Of a stretch of 64,000 nucleotides of DNA, positions 5,193 to 45,495 are shown piece by piece. The notes below the pieces were generated by a model. The model did no database searches and was not told the DNA's origin. It saw only the letters and a program-made list of their open reading frames with translations. The first letter of the stretch is position 1; every line of letters starts with the position of its first letter. Both the position numbers and the translations under genes were made by a program. The DNA comes from an uncultured bacterium (GTDB lineage Bacteria; Chlamydiota; Chlamydiia; Chlamydiales; SM23-39): assembly GCA_964415395.1 (NCBI GenBank), contig CAYPZU010000003.1:5670-69669 (forward strand), in the 5' to 3' direction.

Positions 5193-5861
5193 ATGCGCAC
5201 ATGCGGAATTCTGGCGGGGATTGCGATTCTTTGGACCGCTTCCTCCTGTTCCCCGCTCCGCTCTTCTCCTCTAGATGAAAGGCACCAGTGGGAATTGACG
5301 CTCCACGAAGTGCAAACCAATCTCGACGACCTCCGCCATGACATCAACTGCTTCCAAACTGAAATCCAAATTCTCGACGGCCGGATCAAATATTATGAAA
5401 ACGCGCTTGCTTCGCTGAAGCAGCAGGATCTGGAAAAACACCAGGTCAAAATCGACCAGCTTGCGCAGCAGATCCATGCTCTCGAAAAGAAATGGACCAG
5501 CCTGGACAAAAACCGCGAAGGAGACGCAGGAGAAATCCAGCAGCTTCTGTCCCACGCCAACGAGACGACGGCCGCTCTTTCCCAGTTCAAAGACCGGATC
5601 CAGGAGCTTGAGCAGGACATCCTTTCCCAAAACCGCAGATTCGACGAGATCGCAAAACTCCGCGGCAACATCGAGACGATTGCCAAAGGAATCCGCAACA
5701 GCGCCGACATTTCCTACAAAGTGTATAAAGTGAAGCCGGGCGATTCCCTTGAAAAGATCGCCAAAGCCCACAAGACGGCTGTCGAGCGGATTAAAAAAGC
5801 GAATGGACTTGAGCAGGACCTGATCGTGGTCGGACAAGAGCTCAAAATCCCCAATGAGTAG
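5193..5861 (+). CDS. coiled-coil lipoprotein with C-terminal LysM domain
   Basis: It has a lipobox (WTASSC), a roughly 150-aa heptad-rich region, and a C-terminal LysM (YKVKPGDSLEKIAKAHKTAVERIKKANGLEQDLIVVGQELKIP). It starts 3 nt after pal. Confidence 0.8.
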   Translation: MRTCGILAGIAILWTASSCSPLRSSPLDERHQWELTLHEVQTNLDDLRHDINCFQTEIQILDGRIKYYENALASLKQQDLEKHQVKIDQLAQQIHALEKKWTSLDKNREGDAGEIQQLLSHANETTAALSQFKDRIQELEQDILSQNRRFDEIAKLRGNIETIAKGIRNSADISYKVYKVKPGDSLEKIAKAHKTAVERIKKANGLEQDLIVVGQELKIPNE

Positions 5862-6705
5862 AGACCCTGTCCAGCCGATCGGGCTGTTCGACTCCGGATT
5901 CGGAGGATTGACCGTACTCAAACAGGTTCGCCGTCTCCTCCCTTACGAAAATACCGTCTACCTGGGAGACACAGCGCGCCTTCCCTACGGCAGCAAATCG
6001 CCTCAGACCATCCTCCGATTCGCGGAAGAGAACGCCAGTTTTCTTCTCGAAAAGAAAATCAAAATCCTGATCGTCGCCTGCCACACCGCCTGCTCCCATT
6101 CGTTTGAGATTTTAAAAACTAAGCTCCCAATCCCCGTGATCGGAGTGATCGAACCGGGAGCCAGACTTCTGGCTCAGGCGACAAAGACGAAGCGGGTTGC
6201 AGTGCTCGGAACTGCGAGCACGATCGGCTCGGGGATCTACCAGAATCTTTTCCAGTCCCGCTATCCGGAAATACAGATCTATCCCGTCTCCTGCCCTCTT
6301 TTCGTTCCCCTGGTCGAAGAGGGCTTTTACGCCCATCCCGCGGCCGCATCGATCGCTAAAGATTACCTGAGCCGCCTGGAAAGCACTGATATTGACGCAG
6401 CGCTTCTCGCATGCACACATTATCCTCTGATGCGCGCGATCATCCAGAAAACGCTCGGATCCCACGTTGAACTGATCGAACCAGCCCAGGCCGCGGCAGA
6501 GGAAGCTGCATCCGTTTTGCGGCAAATGAACCTTCTCAACGAAAGCCGCAAAGCGCCAGCCATCGAATTCTACGCCACTGACGATCCAGAAAAATTCCAA
6601 AGGCTAGGAAAAGCATTCCTGGACCGCGAGATCGAACGGGTGATTCTCAAAAAAAATTATGAGCCGGCTATTGAAAAAAAAAAAGAATTTATGAAATTAT
6701 TTTAA
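5854..6705 (+). CDS. murI: glutamate racemase
   Basis: The N-terminus IGLFDSGFGGLTV is typical of the family. The two catalytic-Cys contexts are present (ILIVACHTA, ALLACTHYP). Confidence 0.9.
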   Translation: MSRDPVQPIGLFDSGFGGLTVLKQVRRLLPYENTVYLGDTARLPYGSKSPQTILRFAEENASFLLEKKIKILIVACHTACSHSFEILKTKLPIPVIGVIEPGARLLAQATKTKRVAVLGTASTIGSGIYQNLFQSRYPEIQIYPVSCPLFVPLVEEGFYAHPAAASIAKDYLSRLESTDIDAALLACTHYPLMRAIIQKTLGSHVELIEPAQAAAEEAASVLRQMNLLNESRKAPAIEFYATDDPEKFQRLGKAFLDREIERVILKKNYEPAIEKKKEFMKLF

Positions 6706-6737
6706 ACGACGCCGAGCTCTTTCCCAAGAGGTATAAA

Positions 6738-7436
6738 ATGAGCCAAAAGAAGCGAATCCTGCTGATTGAAGATGAAGAAGACATCGCCGCACTGATCAAA
6801 CTCCAAGCTGAATTATCCGGCTACAAGCTCCACGTTGAAGTCGACGGCATCAACGGCTATCGAGCCATCGAGCGGGAAAAACCCGATCTCGTCATTCTCG
6901 ACATCATGCTGCCTGGAGAAAACGGACTTGATGTTTGCCGCAAAATGAAGAGCAACGCCGAACTGAAGAACATTCCAGTGATCATTCTCTCTGCAAAAGG
7001 GGAAGAGCTTGACGTCGTTCTCGGCCTTGAACTCGGAGCGGACGACTACGTGCCGAAACCATTCTCTCCCAAAGTTCTCTTCTCCCGCATCAAAGCGGTC
7101 ATGCGCCGCGGCAAAGAGCCGGAAAAAGTGGCTAAAACCGTCAAGTTCAGCGACTTCAACCTCGATATCGACCGCTATATTCTGCGGAAGGGGGACAAAA
7201 TCATTCCGCTCACCCTGTCTGAATTCGGAATCCTGCGCCGCCTCGTCACAAACCGGGGGAAAGTGCTGACCCGCAACCAGCTTCTGGATGATATCAACAA
7301 CGACGACGCATTCATTGTCGACCGGAATATTGACGTCCACATCGCCTCGCTCCGCAAAAAACTGGGTCCTTCCTTCGACTGGATCGAGACTGTGAGGGGC
7401 GTCGGCTACCGTTTCCGCGAAGAGCCTTCCATCTGA
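6738..7436 (+). CDS. OmpR/PhoB-family response regulator
   Basis: The receiver domain has acidic residues (LLIEDEED), the phospho-acceptor context (DLVILDIMLPG), and the S/T and K positions (ILSAKGE, YVPKPF). The C-terminus is a winged-helix domain (VDVHIASLRKKL...IETVRGVGYRF). Confidence 0.9.
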   Translation: MSQKKRILLIEDEEDIAALIKLQAELSGYKLHVEVDGINGYRAIEREKPDLVILDIMLPGENGLDVCRKMKSNAELKNIPVIILSAKGEELDVVLGLELGADDYVPKPFSPKVLFSRIKAVMRRGKEPEKVAKTVKFSDFNLDIDRYILRKGDKIIPLTLSEFGILRRLVTNRGKVLTRNQLLDDINNDDAFIVDRNIDVHIASLRKKLGPSFDWIETVRGVGYRFREEPSI

Positions 7437-8713: not shown

Positions 8714-9157
8714 ATGCGATTGATTCGGCACACTCTATTAATCATAACACTCTTAAGCTTAACGAATTGCGCCAGCAACACAGGAACAGGAGTTCTGGGA
8801 GGCGGAGTGGTTGGAGCGAGCATCGGCGGAGCGATCGGCGGCGGCAGCGGCGCGCTCATCGCCAGCGCAGCAGGCGTAGTAGCCGGAGGACTCATCGGCG
8901 CAGGTCTTGACGAACAAGACCGGAAAGTCATGGAGAAAAGCAGCCCCCGCACCGTCGACCGGATGGACCGCCGAGAGCCCCTGACAATCAACGACGTCAT
9001 CAAACTCAGCCAAAGCGGAGTCAACGACGACTCGATCATCCGCTATATCCGAGATACCGGAAGCGGATACAACTTGACCCAGACGCAAATCCGCAGGCTC
9101 CAGGATACCGGCGTAAGCCAACGAGTCATCAATTACATGGTCGACACCAGCAGGTAG
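8714..9157 (+). CDS. glycine-zipper lipoprotein
   Basis: It has a lipobox (LSLTNC). A Gly-zipper stretch follows (GVLGGGVVGASIGGAIGGGSGALIASAAGVVAGGLIGAG). The C-terminus carries two repeats of the G-V-x-D/Q-x-x-I-I/N-x-Y-I/M type. Confidence 0.75.
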   Translation: MRLIRHTLLIITLLSLTNCASNTGTGVLGGGVVGASIGGAIGGGSGALIASAAGVVAGGLIGAGLDEQDRKVMEKSSPRTVDRMDRREPLTINDVIKLSQSGVNDDSIIRYIRDTGSGYNLTQTQIRRLQDTGVSQRVINYMVDTSR

Positions 9158-9166
9158 CCAGCACCT

Positions 9167-9298
9167 ATGAACCTATCCGCAAATTATAACGTCGGTCTTC
9201 GGAAGCTTTTTGACCCCAGCGCCCCAAAATCAAATATTTTGATTCAAAAACCTCCTCGAATCCCTAACCCTCCTATTTTGCGGATAGGTTCTATGAAC
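9167..9298. repeat. inverted-repeat element (15-nt perfect arms, 93-nt spacer) abutting the ATG at 9293; related short copy at 40976..41013
   Basis: GAACCTATCCGCAAA (9169..9183) is the exact reverse complement of TTTGCGGATAGGTTC (9277..9291). TAT flanks both ends. A nested 7-bp palindrome AATCAAA/TTTGATT lies at 9228..9244. Confidence 0.7.
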
Positions 9299-10453
9299 GA
9301 GAAGCTTTCTTCTGGCTCGAATACAATTAAAAGTTTGTTGCTAAAAAAACAAAAAGCGCTTACATCTCATAGGTCAACGGCAACATCCAACCCATCGAAA
9401 AGACCTATGTCCACACAACTCGAAAATGACCGCGATTTCGACGACGCTTTCTTCCAGCATAACCTCCCGCAATATTACCGCTCGATCCTGAAAGAGTTCC
9501 GGAAAATCACCCACTCCTTCGTCTCGTTCAACGTCTTGTTTTCCGCTCTCTTCGCAGCTGAACTTTCCCTCTTTTTCTTCTTCCTCCCTTTCTTAAGCAA
9601 ATCCGCTGTATTCGCCTTTGCGCTCGGCGGCCTGTTTCTCACCTGTTTTTCCTATTTCGTCCTCCTCTTTTATTATCAGGCAAAAAAACCGGAGCAGCTG
9701 ATCCTGCTGAAAGATAAATTCGTCCAGTCGTGCCGCCAAATCCTCCCACTGCCTCCCGGAGAAGCGCAGCACCACCTCTCCCTGGCAGAAGCTCTCTCGA
9801 AACTCTCCACCTATCTCCAGGATTTCGAATGGAATTTCTATAAAACGCCGAAAGCCCTCCACTCATTCTCCCGGTTCATCGCCCGCTTTTCGGCTTACTG
9901 CTACTGGGAAGATGTTTTTAAAATGAAGCTCCTCCTGCTCCACGCCGCTGTCGAAGAGCACCTCAAGCAAATCCGCTCCACTCCTACAGACCTTGAAGTG
10001 CACGCTTCTCTTGCAAATACGTATGTGGCCCTCTCAAAAGTCTACACCGCCCCTTCCCATTCAGAGGGAACCCACCCGAGAGCCAGACGCTACTGGAAAA
10101 ACAAAGCCCTTTTCGAAGATAAATTCCGATCTGCCGCAAGACTTGCGATCGAAGAATTCCGCATCCTGAGCCAATACGCGCCTAACGATCCGTGGGTGCA
10201 TGAGCAGCTCGCCGTCGGCTATCGCGACCTCGGCATGCCCGAAGAAGAAGTGCGCGAAGTGGAAACCCTTTTGAAACTTCGCCCCCACGACAAAGAAATC
10301 CTCTTCCGGCTCGGAATGATTTATTTCGAGCAGGGTCAAAACGCAAAAGGCCTTCAAGTTTACGAAGAGCTGAAACAGGCCAATTTCAAAAAAGCGGAAG
10401 ATCTCATCTCGGTGTACGGGAAGACGCCCCTTAAAAATTCTCTGACCCAATAA
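9293..10453 (+). CDS. membrane protein with bilobed hydrophobic domain and C-terminal TPR repeats (Inc-like candidate)
   Basis: I prefer ATG 9293 (MNEKLSSGS...) because the ORF-track extension back to 9167 is the repeat element. The hydrophobic pair VSFNVLFSALFAAELSLFFFFLPFL-SKS-AVFAFALGGLFLTCFSYFVLLFYY sits at about residues 76-128. The C-terminus is TPR-like (QLAVGYRDLGMPEEEVREVETLLKLRPHDKEILFRLGMIYFEQGQNAKGLQVYEEL). Confidence 0.7.
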   Translation: MNEKLSSGSNTIKSLLLKKQKALTSHRSTATSNPSKRPMSTQLENDRDFDDAFFQHNLPQYYRSILKEFRKITHSFVSFNVLFSALFAAELSLFFFFLPFLSKSAVFAFALGGLFLTCFSYFVLLFYYQAKKPEQLILLKDKFVQSCRQILPLPPGEAQHHLSLAEALSKLSTYLQDFEWNFYKTPKALHSFSRFIARFSAYCYWEDVFKMKLLLLHAAVEEHLKQIRSTPTDLEVHASLANTYVALSKVYTAPSHSEGTHPRARRYWKNKALFEDKFRSAARLAIEEFRILSQYAPNDPWVHEQLAVGYRDLGMPEEEVREVETLLKLRPHDKEILFRLGMIYFEQGQNAKGLQVYEELKQANFKKAEDLISVYGKTPLKNSLTQ

Positions 10454-23317: not shown

Positions 23318-25921
23318 TTATCTCGATTCAACGAGCTGCCCGCCTTCGTAATAAAGCACGGTGACATGGCCGTCCTTATCAAACTTCTTCTTCTCGCCTT
23401 CAGGCGTGTCGTAGACGAAAGTCTGCTCTAGATAAGGGCTTCCGTCGTCGTAATACTTGTTGAACTTTCCATGGCGGAGATTGTCCTGGTATTCGGCTTC
23501 GAAGACAAGAACGCCTTCCGGGTTCCAGCTTTGCGCCAGACCGTCCAAGAGATCGTTCCGGTAGCAGAAGATCGATGCGAGCCGTCCGTTTTCATGGTAT
23601 GTTTTTTCTTCGCCTTCCCGCTTATCGTCCATGTAATACGTTTCGCGGTAGACAGCCCCATTGGGGAAATATTGGACAAAGTATCCATTTTTCTTGTCTC
23701 CGGAAAACTCGATTGTCGCGCTGAGTTTTCCTTCTAGATTGTACGCGCGGGCGAGCCCTTGTTTCTGGCCGTTCACGTAAGGAGTTTCTGCGACCTTCAT
23801 TCCTTTATCCGTGTATTCTGAAGCCAATCCTTCGATCTGGTCATTCACGAATTCGATTTCGAGCGCCTTATGTTTTTCCCCTTTGGGATTCGGAGGATAG
23901 TAAACTGTATGAGGCCCGTTTTTCAGGTTGCCGCTGTAGAAGGTAACAACTTCTTTTCCGTCCTGGCTTCTCTGAAAGAACCGTCCCTCGAGCTTGCCGA
24001 GAACATAATTGGCTTCTTCCACGAGGTTCCCCTGAGGATCCCACATCTGCTTCGAACCGTTGACTAACCCGTGTTCATAAGCGAGCTGGGCCTGGAGTTT
24101 GCCTCCTTCATAGAAGGTTTTCTCGACCCCATGCAGCTTCCCTTCGTCGTCATACTGGAAGTAATGGGCAAGGCGGTCGGCATCTTTCTGCCCAGACGCC
24201 GTCTTCGGATAGTAGGTGAGGTGTTCTCCTACAGGCTTTCCCTCTTTGAAGCGCTGGATCGACTGGATCGAGCCGTCGGCATACCAGGAAAGGGCCTCCC
24301 CATCCATTCCGTCATCTTTAAATGAGGCGAACCGCTCTGGATTCCCATTCTGGTGATACCATTCGTGCTTGCCTGTTTTCTTCCCCTTCTCGAAGTGGAA
24401 TTTGGTTTTAATCTGATCCTGGCCCCACCAGGTCAAAACAGTTCCCTCGAGCTGGTCTTTATCGAAAAAGGCTTCAAATACCGGAGCCCCTTTCTCATTC
24501 CATTCGCGATGCCATCCCTGCTTGAGGCCGAAGGCGAATTCGGCTCTGCTTTTCAGCTGGCCGTTTTCATACCACTCGCTCTGGACGCCATCAGGATGGT
24601 CAGCCTGGAAGTATGCGTCGAGGCGGGCGTTGCCGTTCGCGTACCATTCGCCCATCTGCCCATCTTTGAGGCCTTCAGAGAAATGGACTCTGCGGGCCAA
24701 AACGCCGTTTTCGTGCCACTCTTCATGCAGCCCGTCTCTCTGCTGATTTTTGGTGCAGGTGGAGACTTTGATCTGCCCGGAAGGATAGTATTCTTTCTGT
24801 TCCCCTTCGAGCTGGCCGGCGGCATAGTTATATTCTGTCTTCAGCGTCCCGTCCGGATACCACTCTAAAAAGGGGCCGTCCAAACGTTCTCCCGCCATCG
24901 AGAACTGGCGGATTTTCTGTCCCTGGTCGTCGAATTCGGCGACCGGCTCAAGCAGCTGGCCCTTCGCATCGAAATGGGCGATATACGCTGCCGCGCCGTT
25001 CGGGTGGTTGCGCCAGTGTTTCCCCTGCGGGCGGCCCTCGGCGAACATCCCTTCGCCAATCAGCACGCCTTCGTCGCTGAAATACTGCTCTTTTCCTTCT
25101 TTCTTCCCGTTCCGGAAATTGACCCTGTAGGCCTCTTTGCCGTTAGCGTGGTACCGGATATGGAGGCCGACCGGCTGCCCTTCGCGGAAATCGACGACTT
25201 CGATCACGTTTCTCTGCTCGTCATAGCCGATCAGCGCAGGATTTTTCCCGTCTCCGTGCAGCATCCCCTGGAAAAACTGCCGCTGCAGTTTCAACAGGCC
25301 GGAAGCGAACCACTCGATCGCCGTCCCATGGACTTTTCCGTTTTTGTGCGGAAGAACTGCCGCTTTGGAGCCATTCTCATAATATTGGACGACATCCCCC
25401 TCCAGTTTCCCCTCTTCGTAGCTGGCTGTTTCTTTGATCTCGCCGCTTTCGTAAAAAGATTGAGCGGTTCCGTTCAATACTCCATCTCGATAGAAGACTG
25501 AAGTCTGAACCTTGCCGCTCGGGTAGAATGTTTTGCATTCGCCGGAGAGCTGGCCAAGTTCATAGCCGGAAATTTTAGCCAGCTTCCCATCCGCTGAAAA
25601 TTCTACGCGGGCGCCATGGGGAACAAGAGTCGAGTTCCACTGTTTTGCCGCAGCGGAATCCTCATCGACTGTGGCGATATCCATTTCAGACTGGATCCGG
25701 TTGTTTTCGAAAAAGACAACCTGCTTAACCGGGCGCTCGCCATCGAGATTGGGTTCATAGAATAGAACCGTCTGGGGCGTTCCCTGCGGGTAGGATTGGA
25801 CGATGTCGAATCTCCAGTTCGGCTGGCGGGGCTTCAGAGAAACAGCCGTTTGGGGAGGATTGGGCGCTTCCGCTGAAAGGGCGGCTGTGCAAAGGGTCAA
25901 AGCGACTAAAATCTTCTTCAT
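23318..25921 (-). CDS. exported MORN-repeat (YwqK-like repeat) protein
   Basis: ATG 25921 gives a signal peptide (MKKILVALTLCTAALSA). Dozens of roughly 23-aa repeats of the form YYxNGxxxxxxxYxxGxxxGxxxxW/Y occur (for example EWYENGQLKSRAEFAFGLKQGWHREW). Confidence 0.85.
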   Translation of the reverse strand: MKKILVALTLCTAALSAEAPNPPQTAVSLKPRQPNWRFDIVQSYPQGTPQTVLFYEPNLDGERPVKQVVFFENNRIQSEMDIATVDEDSAAAKQWNSTLVPHGARVEFSADGKLAKISGYELGQLSGECKTFYPSGKVQTSVFYRDGVLNGTAQSFYESGEIKETASYEEGKLEGDVVQYYENGSKAAVLPHKNGKVHGTAIEWFASGLLKLQRQFFQGMLHGDGKNPALIGYDEQRNVIEVVDFREGQPVGLHIRYHANGKEAYRVNFRNGKKEGKEQYFSDEGVLIGEGMFAEGRPQGKHWRNHPNGAAAYIAHFDAKGQLLEPVAEFDDQGQKIRQFSMAGERLDGPFLEWYPDGTLKTEYNYAAGQLEGEQKEYYPSGQIKVSTCTKNQQRDGLHEEWHENGVLARRVHFSEGLKDGQMGEWYANGNARLDAYFQADHPDGVQSEWYENGQLKSRAEFAFGLKQGWHREWNEKGAPVFEAFFDKDQLEGTVLTWWGQDQIKTKFHFEKGKKTGKHEWYHQNGNPERFASFKDDGMDGEALSWYADGSIQSIQRFKEGKPVGEHLTYYPKTASGQKDADRLAHYFQYDDEGKLHGVEKTFYEGGKLQAQLAYEHGLVNGSKQMWDPQGNLVEEANYVLGKLEGRFFQRSQDGKEVVTFYSGNLKNGPHTVYYPPNPKGEKHKALEIEFVNDQIEGLASEYTDKGMKVAETPYVNGQKQGLARAYNLEGKLSATIEFSGDKKNGYFVQYFPNGAVYRETYYMDDKREGEEKTYHENGRLASIFCYRNDLLDGLAQSWNPEGVLVFEAEYQDNLRHGKFNKYYDDGSPYLEQTFVYDTPEGEKKKFDKDGHVTVLYYEGGQLVESR

Positions 25922-26020
25922 AGATGTTCCACGCTTTTTTCTTGAGTTGAGTTGGAGGTTCAAGAGTAGAAAAAACTCCAAATTTTCACAAGGTTATCAT
26001 CCGAATGCTGCATTAATTTC

Positions 26021-38824: not shown

Positions 38825-39930
38825 TCAGCCAAGACCTGTTTGTAAGCCTTTTCCATCTCGTCGAGAGTATGCCGGAAGGTAAAATGCCCTTCGACAAGCT
38901 CCCTGGCCTTCCTTCCCAATTGAGAGCGCAATTCCCCATTTTCTTTCAACCGGATAACGGCTTGGGCGACCTGATCCGGAGAAAAAGGAGCCACTTGAAA
39001 ACCCGTCTCTCCATCCAAGCACACCTCTCCAAGCCCCCCCACTGCAGTGGCGATCAAAGGCTTCGCCAGAAACGCCGCTTGCAGAATCGCCTGCGAGACT
39101 CCTTCATGAGCCGTGCTCAGCAGCGCAAACGCATCGAGTCCGGCAAGCGCCGGAAAGGGATTGGCCAAATGCCCTGTGAATTGGACGATGCCGTCAAGCT
39201 TCAGCTCCTTCGCCCTCTGCCGATACGTTTCCGCGTGCCCGCCGCCGATAATCACCCACTTTAATCCAGGAGTTTCTCTCAACCGGTCGGCCGCCTTCAG
39301 AAAATCGTCGATCCCTTTCCAGGAGCGCATAAAACAGGCGGTTCCCACAAGAAACTCTTCCGACTTCGCGCCGATCTCCTCCCTGAACCGCTTCGACTCA
39401 GAAGCGCTGACCACAATCCGGGAGGGATCGACCCCCGTGGCCACCGAACGGCAAAGCTCGATCTTTTTTCCAGACTGGCTGCAGATCATCGGGATGATCC
39501 CTTTGCAGGTCGTAACGACGAAATCGGCCAGCCTTCCATATAAAAGACGGCTATTCCATCCGGCCTTAATCGGAGTTGAAAGATGCCGGGTCCGCACGAC
39601 AGGCCGGCGGGCGATCCGTGCAGCAATCCCCCCGATCCATCCATCCAGCGACGAATGGGTATTCACAACGTCGATCCGGTGGCGCAAAATAATCCAGAGC
39701 AGCTGCAGCAGACAGATCGGCCAGGCCGGCTGGCGGAAATTCAGCTCATAAACTGTAAATCCAGCTTTGCGCGCCTGCTCGACCAACCCGCCGCCCCGCA
39801 TCACCCCCATCACAACGCGATGGCCCCTTTGAACCATCCCCTCCGATTCGCGGAGGATCCGGATCTCCTGTCCGCCCCAGCCGGGCGACGCCTCTAAATG
39901 TAAGATTTGCATGGGCTTCCGCATTTTCAC
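38821..39930 (-). CDS. GT4-family (GT-B fold) glycosyltransferase
   Basis: The N-terminus is typical ([16 protein letters not shown]), and the C-terminal EX7E-type region reads [34 protein letters not shown]. Candidate starts are GTG 39930 or ATG 39912. The stop forms an ATGA overlap with copA. Confidence 0.8.
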
Positions 39931-40964
39931 GAAGTTAAAGAGTTCTCTTTTATAATTGCAACCTTCAGAATTTTTCTATGTCCTGAAGAAAACGGCAGCT
40001 CATGAAGCCTCTCTTTTTCAATCCAGATATGGCCGGCCACTTCCCGCATCTCGGCGCGAACCATAAACGGCTTCAGATAGGCTTTGAACCGGGTGAATGT
40101 ATGAGTCACTTCAGGAAGGCGCCTGATAACCCGCCACTGTTTAAAGCCGAGCCTGAAATTCTCCGTCCTCTCTTCAGTGTAAGGAAATTCGTACAAATCG
40201 GCCATCACGCGCCCCGCTTCGCCCTTTCTGACCAGCACTTTCCCTTCGGCTTCGATCCAAAAAACAATCCGATCCAGCTCGATTGTCTTCGCCTCTTCAT
40301 TTTTGATCGGAAGCGCTTCGGCTTTCCGCTCTGAAAACGCCTTGCAGCCCGATTGAAGCGGACACCCCTCGCAGCGGGGCCTTGGTGCGCAATGGGTCGC
40401 CCCCAGTTCGATCAGCGCCTCTGCAGTCACCCACGGCTCCTTCTCATCCAAAAGCCTTTCCGCTCTCGCCTGAAGCTCTCTCTTCACAGCCGCTTTGGAC
40501 ACATTCTCCTCGATGAGGAAATAACGGCTGAGAACCCGGACGACATTCCCGTCGACCGCAGCAGCCCGCTTGTGGAATCCAAAACTTAAAATCGCTCCTA
40601 CCGTGTAAGGGCCCAGCCCGCGGATCGATTCGAGATCTTCTTTCCGATCTGGAATTTCGCCGCCAAACCTCTCGGCAATTTCTCTCGCCCCCGCATGCAA
40701 ATTTCTCGCGCGGCTGTAATATCCGAGCCCCTCCCACGCCTTGATCACCGCGTCCAAAGGCGCTGCCGCCAACGCTTCCACATCCGGGAATCGCTCCATC
40801 CAGCGCTCAAAATAGGGGATGACGACCGCGGCGCGCGTCTGCTGCAGCATCACCTCGGAAATCCATACCCGGTAGGGGGTCTTTTCCCGGCGCCAGGGAA
40901 AATCCCTCCGATTCCGCTCAAACCACAGGTGCAATTCCTTCATAGAAAAAACCCAATTCTGCAA
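39927..40964 (-). CDS. mutY: A/G-specific adenine DNA glycosylase
   Basis: The HhH-GPD core reads PYRVWISEVMLQQTRAAVVIPYFERW and LGYYSRARNL. The 4Fe-4S Cys cluster is present (CAPRPRCEGCPLQSGC), followed by a NUDIX-like C-terminal domain. An alternative start is ATG 40943. Confidence 0.9.
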   Translation of the reverse strand: MQNWVFSMKELHLWFERNRRDFPWRREKTPYRVWISEVMLQQTRAAVVIPYFERWMERFPDVEALAAAPLDAVIKAWEGLGYYSRARNLHAGAREIAERFGGEIPDRKEDLESIRGLGPYTVGAILSFGFHKRAAAVDGNVVRVLSRYFLIEENVSKAAVKRELQARAERLLDEKEPWVTAEALIELGATHCAPRPRCEGCPLQSGCKAFSERKAEALPIKNEEAKTIELDRIVFWIEAEGKVLVRKGEAGRVMADLYEFPYTEERTENFRLGFKQWRVIRRLPEVTHTFTRFKAYLKPFMVRAEMREVAGHIWIEKERLHELPFSSGHRKILKVAIIKENSLTS

Positions 40965-40975
40965 TGATAGATCTT

Positions 40976-41013
40976 ATGAACCTATAACCCCTCTACTTTG
41001 CGGATAGATTCAT
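40976..41013. repeat. short copy of the 9167..9298 element, ending on the ATG of the first TagF-like gene
   Basis: The sequence is ATGAACCTATAACCCCTCTACTTTGCGGATAGATTCAT. It shares TATGAACCTAT and ACCC.TC.TA.TTTGCGGATAG.TTC with the first locus. The arms GAACCTAT/ATAGATTC pair with one mismatch. Confidence 0.6.
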
Positions 41014-42004
41014 GGAACCCGCCGGACTCATTTACGACGACTCGCCCCACTACATCGACCACCTCGCCCCCTTTTGCGCCCAAATGAATTGGCCGCTCTG
41101 GGTTTGCGAGCCGGCAGTGGCCGATCTTTGCCGCGCCTATTATCCAGATCTGGACGTTGTCGAAAAAGACCTTTTCACGCTCTCCCTTCCAAATCCTCTT
41201 CTCGCCTGCGATCCCCTGGCGCTCCTCAGCGCCTCATTTCCAGGCAAACCGATCCGCTCCCTCTGGCTCCCCCACGGCAATTCCGACAAAGGCTGGAGAG
41301 GCCCGTTCTTCGAGGCGCTCTCTCCTTCGGAAACAGCGCTCGTGTACGGCCAGAAAATGATCGACTTCCTAAACCAGAAACAGGTTTCCGCCCAAACCGT
41401 CTCTGTCGGAAACTTTCGCGCCTCCTACTGGGAATCGCACCGCTCCTTTTACACTCCTATCCTGAAAGAAAAAATCCTCTCCCGGCTCCCCGCAAACCCG
41501 ATCTATCTCTACGCTCCCACCTGGAGCGACCAGGAAGATAACGGCTCTTTCTGGCGCGCCTTCCCTGAACTTGCGGATGCTTTGCCGCCCGCTCTCAATC
41601 TCGTCGTCAAACTCCACCCCAACATCCGCCGCAAAGACGAAATCCGACTCGAAATCCTCCTCGGGCGCTATGAAAATCGCCCCAACATCCTCTTTCTCGA
41701 AGATTTCCCTCCCGTCTATCCGCTTCTCAGCCTCGCGTCCGCCTACATCGGAGACATGTCTTCCGTCGGCTACGATTTTCTCTATTTCAACAAACCGATG
41801 TACTTTCTGAACCCCAATCGAAGAGACGCACAATCCGATCCCGGACTCTACCTTTTTCGGTGCGGCGTCGAAACGAACCCGGCCCAGGCATTCCTCTTAG
41901 GGCAAAATGAAGACCCCCTCCAGAATGTCAGAGAGGAAACGTATCGCTATACCTTCGGCCCCGCACCTGACTGGACCGAACTCAAAAAAAAGCTCGCCCC
42001 ATGA
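41012..42004 (+). CDS. CDP-glycerol glycerophosphotransferase-family (TagB/TagF-like) protein, paralog 1
   Basis: Family motifs are present: IYLYAPTWSD, VVKLHPNI and YIGDMSSVGYDFLYFNKPMYFLNP. Confidence 0.7.
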   Translation: MEPAGLIYDDSPHYIDHLAPFCAQMNWPLWVCEPAVADLCRAYYPDLDVVEKDLFTLSLPNPLLACDPLALLSASFPGKPIRSLWLPHGNSDKGWRGPFFEALSPSETALVYGQKMIDFLNQKQVSAQTVSVGNFRASYWESHRSFYTPILKEKILSRLPANPIYLYAPTWSDQEDNGSFWRAFPELADALPPALNLVVKLHPNIRRKDEIRLEILLGRYENRPNILFLEDFPPVYPLLSLASAYIGDMSSVGYDFLYFNKPMYFLNPNRRDAQSDPGLYLFRCGVETNPAQAFLLGQNEDPLQNVREETYRYTFGPAPDWTELKKKLAP

Positions 42005-43023
42005 ACTTCCGATGCGCCGCCCTCAACACAGGCTCCGACATCCACCTGCTCGACCACATCGCGCCTCTGGCCAGTCTTCTCGAAATGCCGCTCATCATAA
42101 CCGAAGAACTCAACTACAGCCTCGCAACAAAATACTACCCCCAGATCGAAACACTCTACGAGCCGGATCTGGAGCACAAACTCGGAGATCTCGCCGCCTC
42201 CTACGACGTCCTCTTCGAATGCAAATACTGGGCTCCTCATCTCAAGCTTCTCTTCCGGCAGCTCTTCAACAAAGAAATGCGGCTCGTTTTCTGCCCTCAT
42301 GGCCAATCCGATAAAGGCTATCAAAGCCCTCTTCTCGCTCCCTACGTCCAGCAAGACCGGGTTCTCCTGTACGGGGAGCTTCTCCATCAGATGCTCAACG
42401 AACTCGAACTTCCGCTCCCGCCATCAGCCGCAATCGGAAACTACCGCCTCAATTTTTACAAAAAACACCGCCCTTTCTACGACGCGCTGGCTGAAGCCGA
42501 AATTTTTTCCAGGCTCCCGCGCGGCAACCCCATCCTTCTTTACGCCCCCACGTGGAAAGATGCCGACTGCTCTACTTCCTTCTTCGACTGGACGCCTGAA
42601 CTTCTTGCTCAGCTCCCTCCCCGCTGGAATCTGATCATCAAACTCCACCCTCTTCTCGAGCAACGAGATCCAGCCCGCTTCTATTCGCTCGCCGCCCGAG
42701 CTGAAAATCAACCCAATGTCGTTTTGCTCTCCGAATTTCCTCCTGTCTACCCGATCCTCTCCCGCGTCGACTGTTATCTGGGCGACGCCTCTTCGGTCGG
42801 GTACGATATGCTTCCCTTTGAGAAGCCCCTTTTCTTTACTCCCGGCCCCCCGCGCCGACTCCATTCGTGCGGTGAAATCGTAGACTCCCCCGCGGCCCTC
42901 TTCCAAAAAAATCTCACAACTCCCTTCCGCAAACAGCAGAAGGAACTCTATGCGCGCGCGTTCACTCCCATCACCGATGCGGAAGCCAAAAAAAACATTG
43001 TTACAATTCTAATCGGCGCTTAG
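42001..43023 (+). CDS. CDP-glycerol glycerophosphotransferase-family (TagB/TagF-like) protein, paralog 2
   Basis: The same motifs occur: ILLYAPTWKD, IIKLHPLL and YLGDASSVGYDMLPFEKPLFFTPG. The start forms an ATGA overlap with paralog 1. Confidence 0.7.
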   Translation: MNFRCAALNTGSDIHLLDHIAPLASLLEMPLIITEELNYSLATKYYPQIETLYEPDLEHKLGDLAASYDVLFECKYWAPHLKLLFRQLFNKEMRLVFCPHGQSDKGYQSPLLAPYVQQDRVLLYGELLHQMLNELELPLPPSAAIGNYRLNFYKKHRPFYDALAEAEIFSRLPRGNPILLYAPTWKDADCSTSFFDWTPELLAQLPPRWNLIIKLHPLLEQRDPARFYSLAARAENQPNVVLLSEFPPVYPILSRVDCYLGDASSVGYDMLPFEKPLFFTPGPPRRLHSCGEIVDSPAALFQKNLTTPFRKQQKELYARAFTPITDAEAKKNIVTILIGA

Positions 43024-45409: not shown

Positions 45410-45421
45410 CTTGGCCTTTAT

Positions 45422-45494
45422 GGGGCGTTAGCTCAGTTGGTAGAGCGCAACAATGGCATTGTTGAGGCCATCGGTTCGACTCCGATACGCTCCA
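45422..45494 (+). tRNA. tRNA-Ala (anticodon GGC)
   Basis: I folded the cloverleaf manually. The acceptor stem is GGGGCGT/ACGCTCC with the G3:U70 alanine identity pair. The D arm is GCTC-AGTTGGTA-GAGC. The anticodon stem CAACA/TGTTG carries the loop ATGGCAT. The T arm is ATCGG-TTCGACT-CCGAT. No CCA end is encoded. Confidence 0.95.
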
Positions 45495-45495
45495 A

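What the first reader, a model, noticed from the sequence alone, without database searches (positions are those of the whole stretch)
9167..9298. A 123-bp inverted-repeat element sits on a start codon, and a second copy lies upstream of an unrelated gene
GAACCTATCCGCAAA (9169..9183) and TTTGCGGATAGGTTC (9277..9291) are perfect 15-nt reverse complements separated by 93 nt. TAT flanks both sides, and a nested 7-bp palindrome lies at 9228..9244. The right arm ends 1 nt before ATG 9293 of the Inc-like TPR gene and covers the only purine-rich RBS-like stretch (GGATAGG). A shortened version occurs at 40976..41013 in front of the first TagF-like gene. That copy shares TATGAACCTAT and ACCC.TC.TA.TTTGCGGATAG.TTC, again ending on the ATG.

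I see two readings. The element could be a miniature TIR element (MITE-like) with a TA(T) target duplication. Alternatively it could be a shared leader hairpin that occludes the RBS and start codon and co-regulates two envelope or host-interaction genes. I do not recognise it as any described motif.
Basis: seen in the sequence. Interest (0 to 1): 0.55.

Follow-up and report, generated by a model that had tools for sequence, protein, structure and literature searches.

The report
Miniature transposon at chlamydial gene starts
The inverted repeat is a small non-coding mobile element (a MITE) of environmental chlamydiae, present here as one 123-bp copy and one 34-bp remnant, each inserted exactly in front of a gene's start codon; it is a new family of a well-known kind of element, not a regulatory leader shared by the two genes.

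Summary
A perfect 15-nt inverted repeat sits at 9169-9183 / 9277-9291, and a third arm with 1 mismatch sits at 40997-41011; shuffles give 0 such matches. Both sites are insertions. Orthologous loci of related Chlamydiota lack about 170 nt at the first site, and the closest relative lacks exactly 36 nt at the second. Homologous elements lie at unrelated loci in other chlamydial contigs. They come as ~190-nt full forms, 123-128-nt internally deleted forms (copy 1) and remnants (copy 2, 34 nt). They show filled/empty polymorphism, including a reciprocal pair inside one dcw cluster, and short flanking duplications (mostly AT). The element folds into a long hairpin kept by compensatory changes, is not protein-coding and matches no Rfam family. 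Copy 2 cannot form the hairpin, so a shared leader structure is excluded. One feature is unexpected. In 9 of 10 evaluable copies the right end abuts a real start codon, always co-oriented, and the left end often restores the upstream gene's TGA. The parent transposase and the genome-wide copy number could not be determined. Verdict: a new MITE family (known kind), with a possibly novel fit to gene junctions.

The parts
9169..9291 (+). Copy 1: a 123-bp internally deleted member of the element family. It consists of the inverted-repeat ends, the conserved left 60 nt and the conserved right ~50 nt.
   Evidence: Aligns with L113 and with the ~190-nt copies L119-L124. nhmmer E = 3e-20 (left part) and 4e-11 (right part). 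RNA fold -35.2 kcal/mol, z = -6.2.
9169..9183 (+). Left terminal inverted repeat, GAACCTATCCGCAAA.
9277..9291 (+). Right terminal inverted repeat, TTTGCGGATAGGTTC. It contains the purine-rich GGATAGG.
9166..9168 (.). Left copy of the flanking TAT (target-site duplication). AT plus the element's first G makes ATG 9167.
9292..9294 (.). Right copy of the flanking TAT. Its AT is the first two bases of ATG 9293.
9228..9244 (.). Central small palindrome AATCAAA-TAT-TTTGATT, the variable apical hairpin of the element.
   Evidence: The equivalent apical hairpins differ in sequence between copies.
9158..9327 (+). The stretch absent from the orthologous loci L005, L007, L009 and L010. It comprises the element, 8 nt on its left and 12 codons of the gene's N-terminal region on its right.
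   Evidence: Alignment A1. The stop codons of the upstream gene align, and the conserved block TAAAAGTTTGTTG follows directly in the relatives.
8714..9157 (+). Upstream glycine-zipper gene. Its stop codon TAG (9155-9157) lies 11 nt before the element.
   Evidence: Pfam; synteny.
9293..10453 (+). Downstream TPR / bilobed-hydrophobic ('Inc-like') gene. The start is ATG 9293 (386 aa) or the universally conserved ATG 9407 (348 aa).
40978..41011 (+). Copy 2: a 34-bp remnant made of 8 nt of the left end (GAACCTAT) joined to the last ~27 nt of the right end.
   Evidence: Clean 36-nt insertion relative to L115. Matches HMM positions 160-194, E = 3.5e-4. No significant fold.
40976..40977 (.). Left copy of the AT duplication of copy 2.
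   Evidence: The empty site in L115 has AT once, and the flank lengths match.
41012..41013 (.). Right copy of the AT duplication of copy 2, which is the first two bases of the start codon of the TagF-like gene.
   Evidence: The N-termini of homologues confirm the start.
41012..42004 (+). TagF-like (CDP-glycerol glycerophosphotransferase family) gene whose ATG abuts copy 2.
39927..40943 (-). Divergent MutY-like gene. Copy 2 lies in the 68-nt divergent spacer, which is 32 nt in the relative L115.

Best explanation
The feature is a non-autonomous transposable element with terminal inverted repeats (a MITE) that circulates in environmental Chlamydiota.

What the copies are. Full-length members are about 190 bp. 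Copy 1 (9169-9291) is a 123-bp member that has lost the central ~65-bp stem-loop module. Copy 2 (40978-41011) is a decayed 34-bp remnant.

Shown. Both are insertions. Homologous copies sit at unrelated loci in other genomes and are flanked by short duplications (AT in most, TAT in copy 1). The sequence is not constrained as a protein. It forms a long hairpin that is kept by compensatory substitutions.

Inferred. A transposase supplied in trans binds the 15-17-bp ends (core CCTATCCGCAAA), cuts the target with a 2-bp (sometimes 3-bp) stagger and inserts the element.

Inferred. In these ~93%-coding genomes, the copies that persist are those that land on the AT of a start codon. The element begins with GA and ends with TC, so the duplicated AT rebuilds an ATG for the downstream gene. 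At ATGA or TGATG overlaps it also rebuilds the TGA of the upstream gene, so both reading frames stay intact.

Inferred. Once co-transcribed, the hairpin buries GGATAGG and the base of the ATG, so it probably modulates translation or mRNA stability of the downstream gene. Nothing shows that the host uses it.
For: 1. Insertion at site 1. Four orthologous loci (TPR protein 80-83% identical, same gene order) lack ~170 nt that include the element, and they contain no copy of the arm.
2. Insertion at site 2. The closest relative L115 (TagF-like protein 87% identical, identical synteny) lacks exactly 36 nt, which equals the 34-nt element plus AT.
3. Family. DNA pattern scans and a search with the element's translated frame found homologous copies at unrelated loci:
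- trkA|trkH (L113)
- LysM-protein|ftsW (L119)
- murF|mraY (L123)
- NUDIX|epimerase (L124-126)
- upstream of an 879-aa gene (L121)
- after a 321-aa gene (L122)
- next to gyrB/parE (L120)
- upstream of a permease
.
4. Reciprocal polymorphism in one gene cluster. L119 is filled at LysM|ftsW and empty at murF|mraY; L123 is the reverse.
5. Flanking duplications equal on both sides: AT/AT in most copies and TAT/TAT in copy 1. In sister families that share the end core they are AG/AG (L109), TT/TT (L116), CT/CT (L118) and TAA/TAA (L106).
6. More than one copy per contig or assembly:
- the window has two
- L113 has a full copy plus a solo end
- L116 has two
- the Abditibacteriales genome (metagenome-assembled) has two
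- two copies lie on different contigs of assembly ERZ27296333
7. Not coding. Variable sites fall 14/14/16 over the three codon positions.
8. Structure. z = -6.2 and -5.7. Eight pairs show double changes, against 2.5 +/- 1.2 in shuffles (0 of 500) and 0-1 in slid controls.
9. No Rfam family matches.
10. Size classes, long stem-loop and contiguous open frames are standard for bacterial MITEs (PMC2229807).
Against: 1. No autonomous element or transposase with matching ends was found. None lies among the window ORFs tested or next to sister elements.
2. Copy number in the source genome is unknown. A family HMM found only these two copies in 64 kb and one per 5-20-kb locus elsewhere.
3. Exact-arm scans of 596 Gb of genomes and of the JGI metagenomes gave few hits, so the family is low-copy or its arms diverge.
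4. For copy 1 there is no true empty site. The relatives also lack 47 nt of flank.
5. Six copies were found through called ORFs, which biases statements about frame and context.
6. The constant AT could be a target plus cleavage motif of a different (single-strand) transposition mechanism rather than a duplication.
Confidence: 0.85

Rival explanations
1. A shared cis-regulatory leader. The two arms pair in the mRNA, hide the ribosome-binding site and start codon, and co-regulate the TPR gene and the TagF-like gene.
For: Copy 1 folds into a stable hairpin that sequesters GGATAGG directly upstream of ATG 9293. The family hairpin shows compensatory changes. Both copies end at an ATG.
Against: Orthologous loci of both genes lack the sequence. 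Copy 2 has only 8 nt of the left arm and folds like shuffled sequence (z = +0.22). The same element precedes unrelated genes (ftsW, mraY, trkH, an epimerase, a permease) in other genomes. No Rfam family matches.
Confidence: 0.04
2. A hairpin element of the REPIN / palindrome-associated type. It would be moved as single-stranded DNA by a tyrosine (HUH, IS200/RAYT-like) transposase. The AT on the left would be the target and the AT on the right the element's own cleavage site, with no true duplication.
For: The whole element is one hairpin kept by compensatory changes. All copies are co-oriented with their neighbouring genes. The dinucleotide is the same (AT) at nearly every junction of the main family. 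Within-hairpin compensation is the signature reported for REPINs (PMC3116915, abstract seen; details from my own knowledge).
Against: Sister families with the same end core carry other dinucleotides that are nevertheless identical on both sides: AG/AG, TT/TT, CT/CT, TAA/TAA. That is what a staggered cut and repair gives. The ends are a perfect 15-17-bp terminal inverted repeat rather than separate subterminal hairpins. There is no GTAG/CGTC tetranucleotide (sequence; the criterion is from the abstract of PMC3733652).
Confidence: 0.08
3. A real small gene (~62 aa, MNLSANYNVGLRKLF...LLCG), or in copy 1 a genuine N-terminal extension of the TPR protein starting at ATG 9167.
For: An open frame runs from the left ATG to a TAG in the right end in L113 and L119-L124, and in copy 1 into the TPR gene. 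Gene callers predicted it in at least 12 assemblies. Length differences are multiples of three or are compensated.
Against: Substitutions are spread evenly over codon positions (14/14/16). L120 and the short forms read the second half in another frame, giving an unrelated peptide. Other members leave the right end in all three frames. No Pfam family is on record for these ORFs. Homologues of the TPR protein have no such extension.
Confidence: 0.02
4. Paired operator sites for a DNA-binding regulator that controls envelope genes.
For: A 15-bp sequence is repeated three times upstream of two genes.
Against: The arms are 93 nt apart and belong to a 123-190-bp unit that is conserved as a whole. 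The unit is absent from orthologous promoters. It is found in front of functionally unrelated genes.
Confidence: 0.01

Closest known systems
Correia elements / NEMIS (CREE) of Neisseria
   Same: Both are small non-autonomous elements with terminal inverted repeats and a dinucleotide duplication. Both have two size classes that differ by an internal segment: 107 vs 155 bp there, 123-128 vs ~190 bp here. Both give a long stem-loop transcript and sit beside genes, whose expression Correia elements can alter (PMC2229807; PMC2649163 abstract).
   Different: The sequences are unrelated. The ends here are 15-17 bp rather than 24-26 bp, and the duplication is AT rather than TA. Copy number appears low rather than hundreds. 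Correia junctions create promoters; these junctions recreate start and stop codons. RNase III or IHF involvement was not tested.
ERIC / YPAL elements of enterobacteria and Yersinia
   Same: Both are imperfect palindromes of 127-168 bp in transcribed intergenic spacers. ERIC/YPAL elements are co-transcribed (some co-translated) with flanking genes, have orientation-dependent effects and carry contiguous open frames (PMC2229807).
   Different: There is no sequence relation and the host phylum differs. ERIC is not reported to sit exactly on start codons. Transcription of the present element has not been shown.
Rickettsia palindromic elements (RPE)
   Same: Both are palindromic ~100-150-bp repeats of obligate intracellular bacteria that keep an open reading frame and can fuse in frame with host genes (PMC10969869). 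Copy 1 is in frame with the TPR gene.
   Different: RPEs are typically inside genes and encode a conserved peptide. These elements sit at gene boundaries and show no codon-position bias.
RUP of Streptococcus pneumoniae (mobilised by IS630-Spn1)
   Same: Both are ~100-bp elements with terminal inverted repeats and a fixed dinucleotide target. RUP is a model for mobilisation in trans by an insertion sequence with matching ends (PMC2229807).
   Different: RUP has stop codons in all frames and TA targets, and its parent insertion sequence is known. Here the parent is unknown and the target is AT(G).
REPINs (REP doublets moved by RAYT transposases)
   Same: Both are ~100-nt hairpin-forming extragenic elements whose stem is kept by compensatory changes.
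   Different: REPINs have no target duplication, are made of two short REP units with a conserved tetranucleotide, and occur in hundreds of copies. Here the flanks are duplicated and the ends are a long perfect inverted repeat.

Membership tests
Bacterial MITE (non-autonomous TIR transposon) | Small size (under ~300 bp) and no transposase gene. | tested here: met
   Sizes are 123 bp (copy 1), 34 bp (copy 2) and 179-194 bp (full copies). There is no protein-type substitution pattern.
Bacterial MITE (non-autonomous TIR transposon) | Terminal inverted repeats. | tested here: met
   Copy 1 has 15 nt perfect (18 nt at 94%). All 8 aligned copies keep the paired ends, and L119 changes both ends together (GAGCC/GGCTC).
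Bacterial MITE (non-autonomous TIR transposon) | Target-site duplication, shown by comparing filled and empty sites. | tested here: met
   Copy 2 against L115: AT occurs once in the empty site and twice in the filled site, and the flank lengths agree. L119 against L123 gives the same length logic. Identical flanking di- or trinucleotides are seen in 9 of the 11 DNA copies with both flanks on record.
Bacterial MITE (non-autonomous TIR transposon) | Several copies at unrelated loci; presence/absence polymorphism. | tested here: met
   At least 9 distinct loci across chlamydial contigs, and reciprocal filled/empty sites. Within the source genome only two copies could be seen, because only 64 kb is available.
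Bacterial MITE (non-autonomous TIR transposon) | A related autonomous insertion sequence with matching ends. | tested here: inconclusive
   None found in the window or the fetched loci. The whole-genome and metagenome scan quotas were used on the two-arm pattern, which cannot span a full insertion sequence.
Cis-regulatory RNA leader (riboswitch/attenuator-type) | Conserved at orthologous loci upstream of the regulated gene. | tested here: not met
   Absent from L005, L007, L009, L010 and L115.
Cis-regulatory RNA leader (riboswitch/attenuator-type) | Every copy can adopt the defining structure. | tested here: not met
   Copy 2 has z = +0.22. Copy 1 has z = -6.2.
Cis-regulatory RNA leader (riboswitch/attenuator-type) | Match to a described RNA family. 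| tested here: not met
   Rfam at gathering threshold on the window gives only a tRNA. Rfam at E <= 1 on L121 and L124 gives nothing over the element.
Correia / NEMIS family | Homologous 24-26-bp ends and a TA duplication. | tested here: not met
   The duplication is AT, not TA. The ends are 15-17 bp, against the 24 bp tabulated in PMC2229807.
Rickettsia palindromic elements | Insertion inside genes in frame, with a conserved encoded peptide. | tested here: not met
   All copies lie at gene boundaries. The peptide is not conserved across frames and there is no codon-position bias.
REPIN / RAYT-associated repeats | No target duplication; REP units with a conserved GTAG or CGTC end; an associated RAYT gene. 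| tested here: not met
   Variable but matching flanking dinucleotides occur in sister families. No GTAG/CGTC at the ends (sequence). The RAYT gene could not be tested.
Integron attC site | Boundaries RYYYAAC ... GTTRRRY (consensus from my own knowledge). | tested here: not met
   The right boundary reads GTTCATG, with C where a purine is required. This was considered only because one sister element precedes a tyrosine recombinase gene.

The most novel reading that the evidence does not exclude
The family is adapted to operon gene junctions.

- It inserts into (or survives only at) the AT of a start codon, in one orientation.
- Its GA...TC termini plus the AT duplication rebuild both the upstream TGA and the downstream ATG at ATGA/TGATG overlaps.
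- Its internal open frame runs from the left ATG to a TAG 4 nt before the downstream ATG. That frame would let ribosomes coming off the upstream gene melt the hairpin that buries the downstream initiation site.
- Translational coupling would therefore be preserved across a 120-190-nt insertion.

If true, this would be a mobile element whose sequence is shaped to be invisible to operon translation. The evidence does not exclude it, and the junction pattern favours at least the first two points.
Probability: 0.3. Interest if true: 0.65.

Novelty: new member of a known kind. Interest (0 to 1): 0.4.

Why it matters
No MITE family has, to my knowledge, been described in Chlamydiota. A 2024 review of prokaryotic MITEs does not mention the phylum, and full-text searches for the end sequence found only unrelated primers.

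The element matters in four practical ways:
- It gives a marker of recent DNA mobility in environmental chlamydiae.
- It explains spurious 50-65-aa 'hypothetical proteins' and start-codon ambiguity in their genome annotations.
- It may break short-read assemblies at these sites.
- It changes the sequence immediately upstream of cell-wall, envelope and host-interaction genes (ftsW, mraY, the TagF-like gene, the TPR/Inc-like gene).

If the junction-specific, frame-preserving behaviour is real, it would show how a transposon can persist in a genome that is more than 90% coding without breaking operons. It would also provide a natural system for studying translational coupling across a structured spacer.

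Tried and rejected
1. Single-arm 15-mer scan of a large collection. In viral contigs it gave 93 hits, all explained by chance or by conserved phage genes, with none in an inverted pair. This showed that one arm alone is uninformative at that scale.
2. A conserved 26-mer of the element in viral contigs: no hit.
3. A full-length element against plasmids (blastn): no hit.
4. Full-text literature searches for the end sequences returned only eukaryotic primers.
5. The idea that the 35 nt right of copy 1 (9292-9330) is a second, degenerate tandem copy. Local alignment to the family consensus is no better than shuffles (p = 0.26-0.33). It is more likely native N-terminal coding sequence.
6. An 8-bp duplication (CTATGAAC in copy 1, GATAGAT in copy 2). 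The two would imply different element boundaries, so I rejected it in favour of the AT/TAT duplication, which fits all copies.
7. Promoter reading. One sigma-70-like match lies inside copy 1 (TTGACC-17-AATATT, 9210-9238), but full-length copies read TTGGTC there. No terminator-like site was found.
8. Search for a transposase. ORFs of the window and ORFs next to sister elements gave none. One sister element precedes a XerC/D-type recombinase, but the other copy in the same genome does not.
9. The DapE protein listed in one cluster with an element ORF (P0253) shows no element sequence and is a clustering artefact.
10. Assignment of the parent to an IS family rests only on my recollection of IS5-type ends beginning GAG/GAA with 2-4-bp duplications. 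It was not testable here, so I make no claim.

Full report
**Observation**

The sequence is as described.
- GAACCTATCCGCAAA (9169-9183) and TTTGCGGATAGGTTC (9277-9291) are perfect reverse complements. The pairing extends to 18 nt at 94%.
- TAT flanks both sides.
- A 7-nt palindrome lies at 9228-9244.
- ATG 9293 follows the right arm after one base.
- A third arm with one mismatch lies at 40997-41011 and ends directly on ATG 41012.
- At up to one mismatch the 15-mer occurs three times in the window, against none in 100 shuffles.
- ATG 9167, made from the left flank and the element's first G, opens a frame that runs through the element into the downstream gene.

**Organism and genes**

- Homologues of the downstream proteins are labelled Chlamydiales, Parachlamydiales or Chlamydiota metagenome-assembled genomes.
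- Site 1 lies between a glycine-zipper gene (8714-9157) and a TPR protein with a bilobed hydrophobic segment. A ShlB-type transporter follows.
- Site 2 lies in the divergent spacer between a MutY-like gene and the first of two TagF-like genes.
- The window is core genome (RpoD, RecBCD, type II secretion). No transposase was found among the ORFs tested.

**Both copies are insertions**

Site 1.
- Four orthologous loci have the same gene order and a TPR protein 80-83% identical.
- They align through the upstream gene's stop codon and resume at a conserved block, TAAAAGTTTGTTG.
- The window has about 170 extra bases in between (9158-9327; alignment A1).
- None of these loci contains the arm.

Site 2.
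- The closest relative is L115 (TagF-like protein 87% identical, identical synteny).
- It differs by a clean 36-nt gap (alignment A3).
- The empty site reads GATAGATTCG-AT-GGAACCC. The filled site reads GATAGATCTT-AT-[34 nt]-AT-GGAACCC.
- The lengths agree only if AT was duplicated.

**A family at unrelated loci**

Pattern scans.
- A two-arm pattern scan of one genome per species found ten loci.
- L113 is a clear homologue of copy 1 over its whole length, in the other orientation of the record (alignment A2).
- L109 (a Chlamydiales genome) and L108 share the ends and general layout.
- Elements in other phyla share only the core CCTATCCGCAAA, placed 4-5 nt from the outer end. They include two copies of one element in an Abditibacteriales genome.
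- The metagenome scan added three loci.

Search by translated frame.
- Gene callers often predict a small ORF in the element, so I searched the protein collection with the element's translated frame.
- This returned twelve 53-65-aa 'proteins', all starting MNLSANYNVGLRKLF and most ending LLCG.
- Their DNA shows full-length elements of 179-194 nt (alignment A6).

Relation of the window copies to the full form.
- Copy 1 and L113 lack the central ~65 nt. Their apical loops resemble different full-length variants, so the deletion may have occurred more than once.
- Copy 2 is 8 nt of the left end joined to the last ~27 nt of the right end (HMM positions 160-194).
- L119 and L123 are the same dcw cluster from two organisms. 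L119 carries the element between the LysM-protein gene and ftsW, and has none between murF and mraY. L123 is the reverse.
- A family HMM found no further copy in the window or in the orthologous loci.

**Ends and duplications**

- Main family: AT/AT in most copies and TAT/TAT in copy 1. L120 has AT on one side only.
- Sister families have other, but matching, pairs: AG/AG, TT/TT, CT/CT and TAA/TAA.
- Matching but variable flanks indicate a staggered cut followed by repair, that is, a true target duplication of 2 (sometimes 3) bp.

**Nature of the sequence**

- Copy 1 and a full copy fold far better than shuffles (z = -6.2 and -5.7).
- On eight copies the consensus hairpin has 54 pairs, 97% of cells paired. 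Eight pairs changed on both sides, against 2.5 +/- 1.2 in shuffles (0 of 500) and 0-1 when partners are slid.
- The hairpin itself is therefore maintained.
- Variable sites are spread 14/14/16 over codon positions of the open frame.
- The second half of the 'peptide' is read in different frames in different copies. It is not a protein gene.
- No Rfam family matches.
- Copy 2 has no significant fold (z = +0.22). This excludes a common leader structure for the two genes.

**Position relative to genes**

Right end. In the main family it is followed at once by ATG. This is the start of a real, co-oriented gene in nine copies:

| Copy | Downstream gene | Evidence |
|---|---|---|
| Copy 2 | TagF-like | N-termini of homologues agree, |
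| L113 | trkH | Pfam match from residue 46; open 209 codons to the contig end; |
| L119 | ftsW | |
| L123 | mraY | the caller missed this start, but the N-terminus aligns with L119's MraY; |
| L121 | 879-aa gene | |
| L124-126 | epimerase beginning MKKKYLVTGGTGF | |
| Contig of ERZ27296333 | permease | by coordinates, |
| P0256 | lipoprotein whose signal peptide follows the element in a read-through product | |
| Copy 1 | TPR / Inc-like gene | see below |

- For copy 1, ATG 9293 gives a 386-aa protein. It aligns from residue 7 with a 67%-identical, 386-aa homologue (alignment A5). The only start shared by all homologues is ATG 9407, and the closest relatives lack the first 12 codons.
- The one evaluable exception held as DNA is L120. 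Three further read-through peptides (P0259, P0260, P0266) also lack the ATG.

Left end.
- ATGAACC supplies the TGA of the upstream gene in L122, L123 and L124.
- The reconstructed pre-insertion sites are ATGA or TGATG stop/start overlaps in L113, L123 and L124.

Rough null.
- The window is about 93% coding. About one third of the ATG sites where an insertion would not break a gene are start codons.
- Nine of ten then has p of about 4e-4, and seven of eight (DNA in hand) about 0.003.

Caveats.
- Six copies were found through called ORFs.
- Copies 1 and 2 were flagged because of their position.
- L113 is the only fully unbiased case.
- Sister families (L108, L109, L116, L117) do not abut start codons.

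**Mechanism**

Shown: insertion, duplication, family, hairpin, non-coding.

Inferred:
- The element is mobilised in trans by a transposase that recognises the 15-17-bp ends.
- Copies persist where the termini (GA...TC) plus the AT duplication rebuild the ATG and the TGA.
- Once co-transcribed, the hairpin buries GGATAGG and the first two bases of the ATG, so it probably influences downstream translation or mRNA stability, as reported for Correia and ERIC elements (PMC2229807).

More speculative: the internal frame (left ATG to a TAG 4 nt before the downstream ATG) is kept by multiples-of-three or compensated indels. It could relay ribosomes across the hairpin.

**Comparison with known elements**

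- Size, inverted ends, duplication, stem-loop, long and short variants and open frames are the standard features of bacterial MITEs.
- The closest analogues are Correia/NEMIS, ERIC/YPAL, RPE and RUP. None is related in sequence.
- I found no description of a chlamydial MITE.
- The parent insertion sequence is unknown.

**Verdict**

The finding is real. The MITE reading is right and the shared-leader reading is wrong. The start-codon position is a genuine and somewhat unusual family trait that needs an unbiased genome-wide census.

Noticed in passing
L105-L107, L110, L111, L118 (element coordinates): The end core CCTATCCGCAAA, placed 4-5 nt from the outer end, also bounds otherwise unrelated 100-130-nt palindromic elements in genomes labelled Abditibacteriales (two copies of one element), Dysgonomonadaceae, Bifidobacteriales and Acidobacteria, and on a JGI contig. 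This suggests one widespread transposase lineage with a conserved end-recognition motif.
   Followed up: partly
L106:2483-3448: One Abditibacteriales copy lies directly upstream of a XerC/XerD-type tyrosine recombinase ORF (Phage_integrase, E = 7e-50). The second copy in the same genome does not.
   Followed up: partly
L113:7155-7169 and L116:2031-2083: Extra relics lie on the same contigs as full copies. L113 has a solo end, GAACCTATCCGAATA, about 35 nt upstream of an ATG preceded by GGAGG. L116 has a 53-nt mini-palindrome with diverged ends (GAACTTATCTGCAAAG...).
   Followed up: partly
window 9293-9406 (and 9328-9400): The region upstream of the universally conserved ATG 9407 of the TPR/Inc-like gene is conserved at protein level (K.LL.KK.KELTRY.ST) in many homologues. 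In the closest relatives, however, the upstream gene's stop codon abuts it. The start codon (ATG, TTG or GTG) and the N-terminal length evidently differ between lineages, and gene callers disagree (323-386 aa).
   Followed up: partly
window 9165-9172 / 9291-9298; 40966-40972 / 41003-41009; L123 about 2358-2369: Fragments resembling the element's own ends lie next to three insertion sites: ATGAAC to the right of copy 1, GATAGAT to the left of copy 2, and GAACCTACT to the left of the L123 copy. The empty site in L115 (GATAGATTCGATGGAACC) resembles an end-to-end junction of the two ends. This could be a target preference for end-like sequence or scars of earlier insertions; it is unexplained.
   Followed up: partly
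window 41012-42004 and 42001-43023: Two tandem TagF-like (CDP-glycerol glycerophosphotransferase family) paralogues overlap by ATGA, in an organism of a phylum not known for teichoic acids.
   Followed up: no
L109:4439-5605 and 5842-7035: In the Chlamydiales genome MFD00008.bin.2.19 the sister element sits between two tandem paralogous ~390-aa genes and overlaps the stop codon of the upstream one.
   Followed up: no
L007:12400-21011: In one relative the TPR locus is followed by an island with AbiEi-, SLFN/AlbA- and AAA-type genes and two tyrosine integrases. The ShlB gene present in the window is missing there.
   Followed up: no
window 1-64000: GC skew is negative in almost every 2-kb bin (cumulative -3.7), so the whole window lies on one replication arm. 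tRNA-Ala (GGC) is at 45421-45495. An 887-aa MORN-repeat protein is encoded at 23318-25981 (-).
   Followed up: no
L122 (contig end at 10198), L003 (contig start 48 nt before the TagF-like ATG): Some short-read contigs end exactly at, or within a few bases of, the element. This is expected if the repeat breaks assemblies, and it is indirect support for multiple copies per genome.
   Followed up: no
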